From a virus (Duplodnaviria > Heunggongvirae > Uroviricota > Caudoviricetes), in IMG/VR virus record IMGVR_UViG_2703718789_000023: a DNA stretch of 4,747 nucleotides, one strand, 5' to 3'. The position numbers were made by a program, and so were the translations under genes. This document shows positions 3,764 to 4,172 of the stretch, piece after piece (within the stretch, counting starts at the first letter, position 1; each line of letters starts with the position of its first letter). The notes under the pieces are model-generated. The model was not told the origin of the DNA. It saw only the letters and a list, made by a program, of their open reading frames with translations, and did no database searches.

Positions 3764-3784
3764 TTTCAAAATATTCCGCTATTT

Positions 3785-3832
3785 GCTCCCAATGCAAAAC
3801 ATATATTGCATTGGGAGCATATTCATATTTTT
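3785..3832 (+). terminator. Strong rho-independent terminator for the hydrolase gene (possibly bidirectional)
   Basis: Perfect 12-bp inverted repeat GCTCCCAATGCA (3785-3796) / TGCATTGGGAGC (3807-3818) with a 10-nt loop, followed by a T-rich tail ATATTCATATTTTTGTTATT. Lies 22 nt after the hydrolase stop codon. Confidence 0.65.
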
Positions 3833-3941
3833 GTTATTATTGTATGAAATCGTCTCATGTACACGGTCCTTTTTTCGCCGAAAACTGATATTACTTTAAT
3901 CAAAAGTTGACGTGCCAGATTCGAAGTAAATTTATAAAATA

Positions 3942-4172
3942 TCAAATCAATATACATTTTGCACCTTCGAGATAGTAATGACTGTTACTGTAACATGAGT
4001 TACGTTCTGCTACATCACGTTGCCGCTTCTGCATATCAGCGATGATGGATGTGGCTTTATCGCGCTGCTCTTTGTAGGCGATGGCGTTATCACGGTAATG
4101 ATTAACAGCCCATGACAGGCAGGCGATAATGCAGATAACCAGAGCGGAGATAATAACGGTTACCCTGCTCAT
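3942..4172 (-). pseudogene. rzpD: Truncated Rz-type inner-membrane spanin gene (N-terminal TMD and first ~55 codons conserved, C-terminal periplasmic coiled-coil region replaced); no embedded Rz1
   Basis: Minus-strand ATG at 4172-4170 overlaps the endolysin stop (ATGA arrangement at 4169-4172). Product begins [39 protein letters not shown] ..., matching the lambda/DLP12 Rz N-terminus as I recall it, but after ...MQKRQRDVA it continues [25 protein letters not shown], unlike the ~150-aa Rz. The Rz1 lipoprotein frame normally embedded in the distal half is absent. Confidence 0.65.

What the first reader, a model, noticed from the sequence alone, without database searches (positions are those of the whole stretch)
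3764..4010. Rearrangement junction inside Rz: the whole phage late region between the lysis cassette and ompT is missing or replaced
Seen in sequence: Rz-like coding sequence ends near nt 4005, and only about 240 nt (including a strong terminator) separate it from the convergent hydrolase gene. Established knowledge (recalled K-12 order): DLP12 carries rzoD, borD, ybcV, ybcW, nohD, tfaD, ybcY, tfaX and appY between rzpD and ompT. Inference: a deletion or replacement event with one endpoint inside Rz either brought in or retained the S33 hydrolase gene. The element is further decayed than, or differs in cargo from, K-12 DLP12.
Basis: partly seen in the sequence, partly recalled or inferred. Interest (0 to 1): 0.45.

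Follow-up and report, generated by a model that had tools for sequence, protein, structure and literature searches.

The report
Deletion scar in a decayed prophage
This is an ordinary deletion scar in a defective lambda-like prophage of a cattle-associated E. coli lineage: about 27 kb of virion genes were lost, joining a truncated lysis gene (Rz) directly to the tail of a cargo block (hydrolase plus OmpT) that was already there.

Summary
There is a rearrangement joint between window nt 4003 and 4004. To its right (minus strand, 4172 to 4004) lie codons 1-56 of a 145-codon Rz i-spanin gene, 100% identical to intact Rz genes in other E. coli prophages and in Stx2 phage 1717. To its left (3764-4003) lies the 240-nt tail of the hydrolase cargo block, including a strong hairpin terminator. 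In 889 complete E. coli genomes and in viable phages (PhiR26_1, ev243) this tail continues into a tail-fibre-assembly remnant, a methyltransferase gene and a complete lambda-like late region.

The joint occurs in only 7 of 5426 complete genomes, from the USA, Germany and Japan. The two carrier loci compared are collinear over 34.7 kb, and the two German carriers are ST300. The joint has no IS, no filler DNA and no microhomology. Relative to intact relatives about 26.7-29.6 kb is missing, including Rz codons 57-145 and the whole embedded Rz1 gene.

The hydrolase was not brought in by this event. It is older cargo that occupies the place of K-12 appY next to ompT. Other strains lost the late region independently at other breakpoints. 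This is routine prophage decay, and interest is low.

The parts
1..26 (.). Terminal inverted repeat of an IS3 element that interrupts envY. This is context, not part of the joint.
   Evidence: Identical to the last 26 nt of K-12 IS3C. The envY match in related genomes starts just after it.
27..626 (+). 3' part of envY (AraC-family regulator), chromosomal flank of the prophage.
   Evidence: PGAP annotation in the carrier genome; Pfam HTH_AraC and HTH_18.
670..719 (-). attR: a 50-nt copy of the 3' end of tRNA-Arg argU (pauD in K-12), the right boundary of the prophage.
   Evidence: 98% match to argU in K-12, CE0032f, Res13 and the carrier genome; sequence comparison. ARAGORN finds no complete tRNA.
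1139..2092 (+). ompT, prophage cargo.
   Evidence: Pfam Omptin, E = 2.8e-130; annotations. Homology to K-12 runs to nt 2142 and then stops.
2279..3763 (+). Gene for a 494-aa alpha/beta hydrolase with a TAP-like C-terminal domain. It is cargo occupying the place of K-12 appY.
   Evidence: Pfam Abhydrolase_1, E = 3.1e-33, and Abhydrolase_4, E = 1.7e-14. Contiguous with ompT and envY in 743 genomes and present in viable phage PhiR26_1.
3784..3819 (+). Hairpin terminator of the hydrolase gene.
   Evidence: 14-bp stem followed by a T-rich tail. The 87-nt stretch 3764-3850 containing it folds at -27.9 kcal/mol, z = -6.0. The 240-nt tail 3764-4003 that includes it is 100% conserved in phages ev243, PhiR26_1 and PhiR30_1.
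3764..4003 (.). Tail of the hydrolase cargo block, the left arm of the joint. In relatives, nt 3947-4003 are the non-homologous read-through end of a tail-fibre-assembly pseudogene.
   Evidence: 99.9-100% identical to CE0032f and to phage genomes up to 4003 and no further. Caudo_TAP homology in the relatives' pseudogene covers only its residues 2-46, upstream of this stretch. K-12 tfaX homology starts only at window-equivalent 4023.
4003..4004 (.). The deletion joint: blunt, with no overlap, no filler and no IS.
   Evidence: Base-by-base three-way alignments. Present in 7 of 5426 complete genomes and in no phage record.
4004..4172 (-). Rz' : codons 1-56 of a 145-codon i-spanin gene (transmembrane helix plus 33 periplasmic residues). 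The embedded Rz1 o-spanin gene is entirely missing.
   Evidence: 100% identical to intact Rz in O145 RM9872, 13E0767 and Stx2 phage 1717. The Rz1 ORF with its lipobox lies wholly beyond the breakpoint in the intact gene.
3942..4172 (-). Fused ORF: Rz residues 1-56 plus 20 residues read from the hydrolase-block tail, out of frame with the relatives' tfa pseudogene ORF.
   Evidence: Translation and ORF list. PGAP flags it as 'lysis protein, incomplete, missing C-terminus'.
4169..4666 (-). Intact endolysin R (rrrD-type lysozyme).
   Evidence: Pfam Phage_lysozyme, E = 1.7e-45; annotation.
4666..4747 (-). 3' end of a class II holin gene, which runs off the window.
   Evidence: Annotation of the collinear carrier genome.

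Best explanation
Window 4003|4004 is the scar of a deletion inside a lambda-like prophage integrated at tRNA-Arg argU, the DLP12 site.

Shown: the intact form of this phage family runs int, early genes, Q, holin, endolysin, Rz/Rz1, (bor, ybcV, ybcW), terminase, head, tail, tail fibres, Tfa, methyltransferase, a Tfa remnant, hydrolase, ompT and attR.

Inferred: in an ancestor of one lineage, everything from Rz codon 57 to a point 240 nt downstream of the hydrolase stop codon was removed, about 27 kb. The most likely mechanism is a single illegitimate (homology-independent) end-joining or replication-slippage-type event, because the joint is blunt and carries no IS and no filler.

Consequences: the prophage can no longer make virions (shown by gene content). 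The spanin pair is destroyed (shown): the i-spanin is cut to its membrane anchor plus 33 residues and fused to 20 junk residues, and the o-spanin is gone. Holin, endolysin, the whole early region and the ompT-hydrolase cargo stay intact (shown). The hydrolase is pre-existing cargo and the hairpin at 3784-3819 is its own terminator.
For: Breakpoint mapping: the left arm is identical to CE0032f and to phage genomes up to 4003, and the right arm is identical to intact Rz from 4004.

Both arms have the same relative orientation and order as in intact relatives, so a simple deletion suffices.

The missing interval is 26,706 nt in phage PhiR26_1, 27,612 nt in CE0032f, and 29,612 nt in 2014C-3057, which carries two extra IS.

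The carrier prophage has one att pair: argU with intD and the 50-nt argU copy at window 670-719. It spans 24.5 kb.

The joint is in 7 of 5426 genomes. The two carrier loci compared are collinear over 34.7 kb at 99.89% identity, with the same IS3 insertions. The two German carriers are both ST300 (PMC5427212).

The hydrolase block is widespread without the joint.

Other strains lost the late region independently at different breakpoints: IS1-bounded in O157:H16 Res13, tail fibre joined to essD in TB06053, and aaaD/tfaD in K-12.
Against: No undeleted immediate ancestor was found, that is, an argU prophage with this same Stx-phage-type Q-to-lysis module and an intact late region next to the hydrolase. 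The size and the single-step nature are therefore inferred from more distant relatives.

The other hydrolase carriers examined have a DLP12-type lysis module that is only about 92% identical.

The two parents show patchy 13/27 identity around the breakpoints, in the top 0.8% of random pairings. This hints at weak homeology rather than a purely random join.
Confidence: 0.85

Rival explanations
1. Multi-step decay. Two or more successive deletions, for example an IS-mediated adjacent deletion followed by loss of the IS with some flank, produced the present joint.
For: IS-driven loss of the same interval exists in O157:H16 Res13, where IS1 sits between window-equivalent 4036 and Rz-equivalent 4083. 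O157:H7 has ISEc8 inserted at window-equivalent about 4029. The carrier lineage is rich in IS3 copies.
Against: There is no IS end, target duplication or filler at the joint. The window keeps more Rz than the IS1 strain and has a different lysis-gene allele, so it cannot derive from that state.
Confidence: 0.1
2. Inter-prophage event. A Stx-phage-like lambdoid, arriving at argU in tandem or recombining from another site, was joined to an older resident remnant (Tfa remnant, hydrolase, ompT). On this reading the late region was replaced or lost between two different elements rather than deleted within one.
For: The Q-nanS-holin-R-Rz module of the carriers is of Stx-phage type, 100% identical to Stx2 phage 1717 Rz. 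The other hydrolase carriers examined have the DLP12-type essD-rrrD-rzpD module. The ompT-hydrolase block also occurs at a different prophage site in O157:H7, so it moves between backbones.
Against: Lambdoid mosaicism normally exchanges modules by homologous recombination at flanking homology, and this joint lies in non-homologous sequence. The left arm of the carrier prophage shares identical proteins (Bet, TraR-like, DUF4222) with other argU prophages. Only one att pair remains. Even under this scenario the final step is a deletion.
Confidence: 0.12
3. The short Rz is a natural functional variant, or the joint is an assembly artefact.
For: None beyond the presence of an open 76-codon reading frame.
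Against: Zero of 50,697 phage records contain the joint. Intact 145-aa Rz genes are 100% identical up to the breakpoint. Rz1 is absent. Seven independent closed assemblies agree. PGAP marks the gene as incomplete.
Confidence: 0.01

Closest known systems
Cryptic prophage DLP12 of E. coli K-12 MG1655 (argU site)
   Same: Same integration site (argU, intD) and the same attR tRNA fragment between ompT and envY. ompT is right-end cargo in both. Both are defective lambdoids that have lost virion genes.
   Different: K-12 keeps full rzpD/rzoD, borD, ybcV, ybcW, nohD, tfaD, ybcY and tfaX, and carries appY where this element has the hydrolase. Homology to the window stops at nt 2142 and resumes only in the R/Rz region at 92% identity. 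K-12's early region is much more decayed. Here int, exo-bet-gam, N, cI, cro, cII, O, P, nin and Q are all annotated as intact. The holin is class II rather than EssD type.
Viable DLP12-like temperate phages PhiR26_1, PhiR30_1, ev243 and 2G7b (45-48 kb)
   Same: They carry the same hydrolase-ompT block. The 240-nt tail 3764-4003 is 100% identical in ev243, PhiR26_1 and PhiR30_1, and 98.3% identical in 2G7b.
   Different: They are complete. PhiR26_1 has 26.7 kb of bor, ybcV/W, terminase, head, tail, tail-fibre and methyltransferase genes between Rz codon 56 and this tail, and it has the DLP12-type lysis cassette.
argU prophage of E. coli O157:H16 Res13-Lact-PEA12-26
   Same: Same overall outcome, with the hydrolase tail joined to a 5' stub of Rz and the whole late region gone.
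   Different: The event is independent. An IS1 sits at the joint, the breakpoints are 33 nt (tail side) and 79 nt (Rz side) away from those of the window, and the lysis allele is DLP12-type.
Rz/Rz1 embedded two-component spanin of lambdoid phages (e.g. Stx2 phage 1717; WP_000092318.1)
   Same: The first 169 nt are 100% identical and the start has the same ATGA overlap with the endolysin stop.
   Different: Only 56 of 145 codons remain and the embedded Rz1 lipoprotein gene is absent. This is a remnant, not a spanin system.

Membership tests
Prophage-decay deletion joint | Each arm is individually contiguous with different neighbours in intact related elements. | tested here: met
   The left arm continues into the Tfa remnant and methyltransferase in 889 genomes and in phages. 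The right arm continues into full Rz.
Prophage-decay deletion joint | The order and orientation of the arms match the intact element, so a simple deletion suffices. | tested here: met
   CE0032f, 2014C-3057 and PhiR26_1 all have the hydrolase and Rz convergent, with the late region between them.
Prophage-decay deletion joint | The joint is restricted to a clade, consistent with a single historical event. | tested here: met
   7 of 5426 genomes carry it. Two carrier loci are collinear over 34.7 kb at 99.89%. The two German carriers are ST300 (PMC5427212). Sequence types of the US and Japanese carriers were not checked.
IS-mediated adjacent deletion | An IS end lies at the joint. | tested here: not met
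   Both arms match their parents up to the very base of the joint with nothing between them.
Microhomology-mediated deletion | At least 2-3 nt are shared by both parents at the breakpoint. | tested here: not met
   There is 0 nt of overlap at the joint, only patchy 13/27 identity around it.
DLP12-family argU lambdoid prophage | intD integrase sits next to argU, and an argU 3' fragment forms attR between ompT and envY. | tested here: met
DLP12-family argU lambdoid prophage | The lysis cassette is essD-rrrD-rzpD/rzoD. | tested here: not met
   The holin is class II. R and Rz are 92% identical in nucleotide sequence to the K-12 genes, and this Rz allele is the 145-aa Stx-phage type.
Rz/Rz1 spanin system | A full-length i-spanin with its periplasmic coiled-coil domain. 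| tested here: not met
   56 of 145 residues are retained. Pfam finds no family for the fusion protein.
Rz/Rz1 spanin system | An embedded o-spanin (Rz1) lipoprotein ORF. | tested here: not met
   In the intact gene, Rz1 with its lipobox LLGVSAC lies wholly on the deleted side of the breakpoint.
Peptidase S33 / TAP-like alpha/beta hydrolase (the neighbouring cargo gene) | An alpha/beta-hydrolase fold plus a TAP-like C-terminal domain. | tested here: met
   Pfam PF00561 and PF08386, both above their cut-offs. Catalytic activity was not tested.

The most novel reading that the evidence does not exclude
Loss of the late arm of argU lambdoid prophages may be recurrent and shaped by selection or by a local hot spot rather than by random decay. 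At least four independent deletions (this lineage, O157:H16 Res13, TB06053 and K-12) keep the ompT cargo and the holin gene, and all but TB06053 also keep the endolysin gene. Three independent rearrangements (a clean deletion at 4003, ISEc8 at about 4029 and IS1 at 4036) fall within about 35 nt at the AT-rich mosaic boundary just past the hydrolase block. If real, this would mark a fragile or recombinogenic module boundary, or a domestication route that disarms virion production and the spanins while keeping useful genes.
Probability: 0.12. Interest if true: 0.3.

Novelty: new member of a known kind. Interest (0 to 1): 0.1.

Why it matters
It matters little beyond bookkeeping, in three ways. 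First, the joint is a clean, base-exact marker of one bovine STEC/aEPEC lineage; the German members are ST300 (O156:H25 and O182:H25). Second, it documents one more independent route by which DLP12-family prophages become defective while keeping ompT and a secreted-type hydrolase as cargo. Third, it corrects the impression that the hydrolase arrived with the rearrangement: hydrolase plus ompT is a standing cargo block of viable phages, which are the intact form of DLP12. The carrier prophage should be unable to form particles and should be spanin-deficient. That could be relevant if the retained holin and endolysin are ever expressed.

Tried and rejected
Six lines of enquiry led nowhere or were ruled out.

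(1) I looked for an IS remnant or filler at the joint. There is none; both arms match their parents to the base.

(2) I looked for microhomology. There is 0 nt of overlap. The longer megablast extension to 4015 in some genomes is only patchy similarity, 8 of 10 positions.

(3) I considered whether the O157:H16 IS1 arrangement could be the precursor. It cannot: the window keeps more Rz, and the lysis allele differs.

(4) I looked for an undeleted sister in strain 13E0767, from the same study. Its matching Rz lies in a prophage at the bio/ybhB site, not at argU. CE0032f and 2014C-3057 have intact argU prophages but a different lysis module. No immediate ancestor was identified.

(5) I scanned the whole window against Rfam and for tRNAs. 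There were no hits, so no known RNA element lies in 3764-4010.

(6) I searched the literature for the PhiR and ev243 phages and for DLP12/ompT/argU. Nothing described this joint.

Full report
**What is in the window**

The window reads as follows:

- 1-26: the end of an IS3 element.
- 27-626 (+): the 3' part of envY.
- 670-719: a 50-nt copy of the 3' end of tRNA-Arg argU. This is the attR of an argU-integrated prophage, called pauD in K-12.
- 1139-2092 (+): ompT.
- 2279-3763 (+): a 494-aa alpha/beta hydrolase with a TAP-like C-terminal domain.
- 3784-3819: a hairpin terminator.
- 4004-4172 (-): a truncated Rz gene.
- 4169-4666 (-): an intact phage lysozyme gene.
- 4666-4747 (-): the 3' end of a class II holin gene.

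**Checking the observation**

- Megablast of the whole window against 5426 complete E. coli genomes shows that most close matches stop at exactly nt 4003.
- A 251-nt probe across the joint is covered in only 7 genomes. All other genomes match either probe positions 1-124 (up to 136 in a few) or positions 125-251.
- Base-by-base three-way alignment places the joint between 4003 and 4004.
- The hydrolase stop ends at 3763, so the spacer is exactly 240 nt.
- The hairpin has 14 perfect pairs followed by a T-rich tract. The 87-nt stretch 3764-3850 containing it folds at -27.9 kcal/mol, z = -6.0.
- The recalled K-12 gene order is correct.

**What the two arms are**

*Right arm.* An intact allele of this Rz is 145 aa (O145 RM9872, 13E0767, Stx2 phage 1717). 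It is 100% identical to the window from 4004 to the start codon at 4172.

- The window keeps residues 1-56: the transmembrane helix plus 33 periplasmic residues.
- Codon 57 spans the joint, and the frame then runs through 20 unrelated codons to a stop at 3942-3944.
- The embedded Rz1 lipoprotein gene lies wholly beyond the breakpoint in the intact gene, so it is absent here.
- PGAP already labels the remnant 'lysis protein, incomplete'.

*Left arm.* Positions 3764-4003 are the tail of the hydrolase cargo block.

- In CE0032f, 2014C-3057 and 887 other complete genomes the sequence continues past 4003. It runs into a remnant of a tail-fibre-assembly gene, a SAM methyltransferase (intact ybcY), tail fibres and a complete lambda-like morphogenesis region.
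- In those relatives PGAP's Tfa pseudogene reads through into window-equivalent 3947-4022. Real Tfa homology (Pfam Caudo_TAP, and K-12 tfaX) begins only at about 4023-4028.
- The window therefore keeps no genuine tail-fibre-assembly sequence. The breakpoint lies about 20-25 nt inside the hydrolase block.

**The hydrolase is standing cargo, not an import of this event**

- envY-ompT-hydrolase is contiguous in 743 complete genomes.
- The block is continuous across the left breakpoint in 889 genomes.
- It also sits at a different prophage site in O157:H7.
- Viable temperate phages carry hydrolase plus ompT at the right end of the prophage map. PhiR26_1 (48.2 kb, propagated on MG1655), ev243 and PhiR30_1 have the 240-nt tail at 100% identity, and 2G7b has it at 98.3%.
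- Relative to K-12, the hydrolase block (window 2143 to about 4022) occupies the place of the appY block.

**The host element**

In carrier genome 2014C-3061 the prophage runs 24.5 kb from attR to argU and intD. Its early arm is annotated complete: xis-side genes, exo-bet-gam, kil, cIII, N, cI, cro, cII, O, P, ren, nin and Q. Next come a nanS-like esterase, an IS3, the holin, R and Rz'. There are no head or tail genes. The Q-to-lysis module is of Stx-phage type, whereas the other hydrolase carriers examined have the DLP12-type essD-rrrD-rzpD module, about 92% identical.

**Size and mechanism**

The equivalent interval measures 26,706 nt in PhiR26_1, 27,612 nt in CE0032f, and 29,612 nt in 2014C-3057, which has two extra IS. 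Arm order and orientation equal those of the intact elements, so a simple deletion suffices.

The joint has no IS end, no filler and 0 nt of microhomology. The two parents share only patchy 13/27 identity around the breakpoints, which is in the top 0.8% of random pairings. I infer a single homology-independent illegitimate recombination event. Multi-step decay, or a join between two different prophages, cannot be excluded, because no undeleted immediate ancestor was found.

**Distribution**

The seven carriers are 2014C-3061 (USA, human), 13E0725 and 13E0780 (Germany, cattle) and four OkiPb strains (Japan, cattle). 2014C-3061 and OkiPb01683 are collinear over 34.7 kb at 99.89% identity, with the same IS3 insertions and the same protein accessions. 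The German strains are both ST300, with serotypes O182:H25 and O156:H25 (PMC5427212). This fits one event inherited clonally. The window's own genome differs by an IS3 in envY and one SNP.

**Parallel decay**

Other strains lost the late arm independently:

- O157:H16 Res13 has IS1 between window-equivalent 4036 and Rz-equivalent 4083.
- TB06053 joins a tail-fibre stub directly to essD.
- K-12 has its own aaaD/tfaD deletion.

**Consequences**

Shown by gene content: no virion genes remain and no functional spanin pair remains, while the holin, the endolysin, the early genes and the ompT-hydrolase cargo are intact.

Inferred from lambda biology: the prophage is non-inducible for particles. Any holin-endolysin lysis would be spanin-defective. 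Q-antiterminated late transcription would now run antisense into the hydrolase gene, because the scan finds no minus-strand terminator in 3600-4300.

**Verdict**

This is routine cryptic-prophage decay: a new instance of a well-known kind, and of low interest.

Noticed in passing
window 1-26: The window opens with the terminal inverted repeat of IS3, identical to the last 26 nt of K-12 IS3C. envY sequence starts at nt 27 (about codon 54), so envY is disrupted by IS3 in the source genome. None of the 5426 complete genomes shows this IS3|envY joint.
   Followed up: partly
window-equivalent 4003-4036 (L012 about 9276; L008 10014/10015): Three independent rearrangements fall within about 35 nt just past the hydrolase block, at the mosaic boundary with Tfa homology (about 4023-4028). 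They are the clean deletion here (4003), an ISEc8 insertion in O157:H7 (about 4029) and an IS1-bounded deletion in O157:H16 (4036). This could be a hot spot, but ascertainment bias is likely because the queries were centred there.
   Followed up: partly
L012 (O157:H7 strain 9234) 6386-12674: In O157:H7 the block ompT, hydrolase, Tfa remnant, methyltransferase sits near an icd fragment, iraM and ycgX, not at argU next to envY. The cargo block therefore travels between lambdoid backbones and sites.
   Followed up: no
L013 (phage PhiR26_1) 45110-47734; also ev243, 2G7b, Turner: Viable temperate phages of 45-48 kb carry both ompT and the 494-aa hydrolase as right-end cargo. They represent the intact form of DLP12. 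PhiR26_1 also carries an annotated PD-lambda-1 defence gene.
   Followed up: partly
window 2279-3763: The hydrolase has Abhydrolase_1 plus a TAP-like (PF08386) domain. It is tightly linked to the ompT protease gene in more than 740 genomes. I know of no characterised function, and it may be an exported peptidase or esterase co-selected with OmpT.
   Followed up: no
L001 20297-23408 (carrier genome, beyond the window): Between Q and the holin gene the carrier prophage has a Stx-phage-like layout (a DUF3927 gene, a nanS-like SASA esterase, and an IS3 inserted in a DUF6645 gene), but no stx genes are annotated. It looks like a stx-less relative of Stx phages sitting at argU.
   Followed up: no
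window 914: This is the only true nucleotide difference (T versus C) between the window and carrier genome 2014C-3061 over 4.7 kb. It lies in the ompT upstream region.
   Followed up: no
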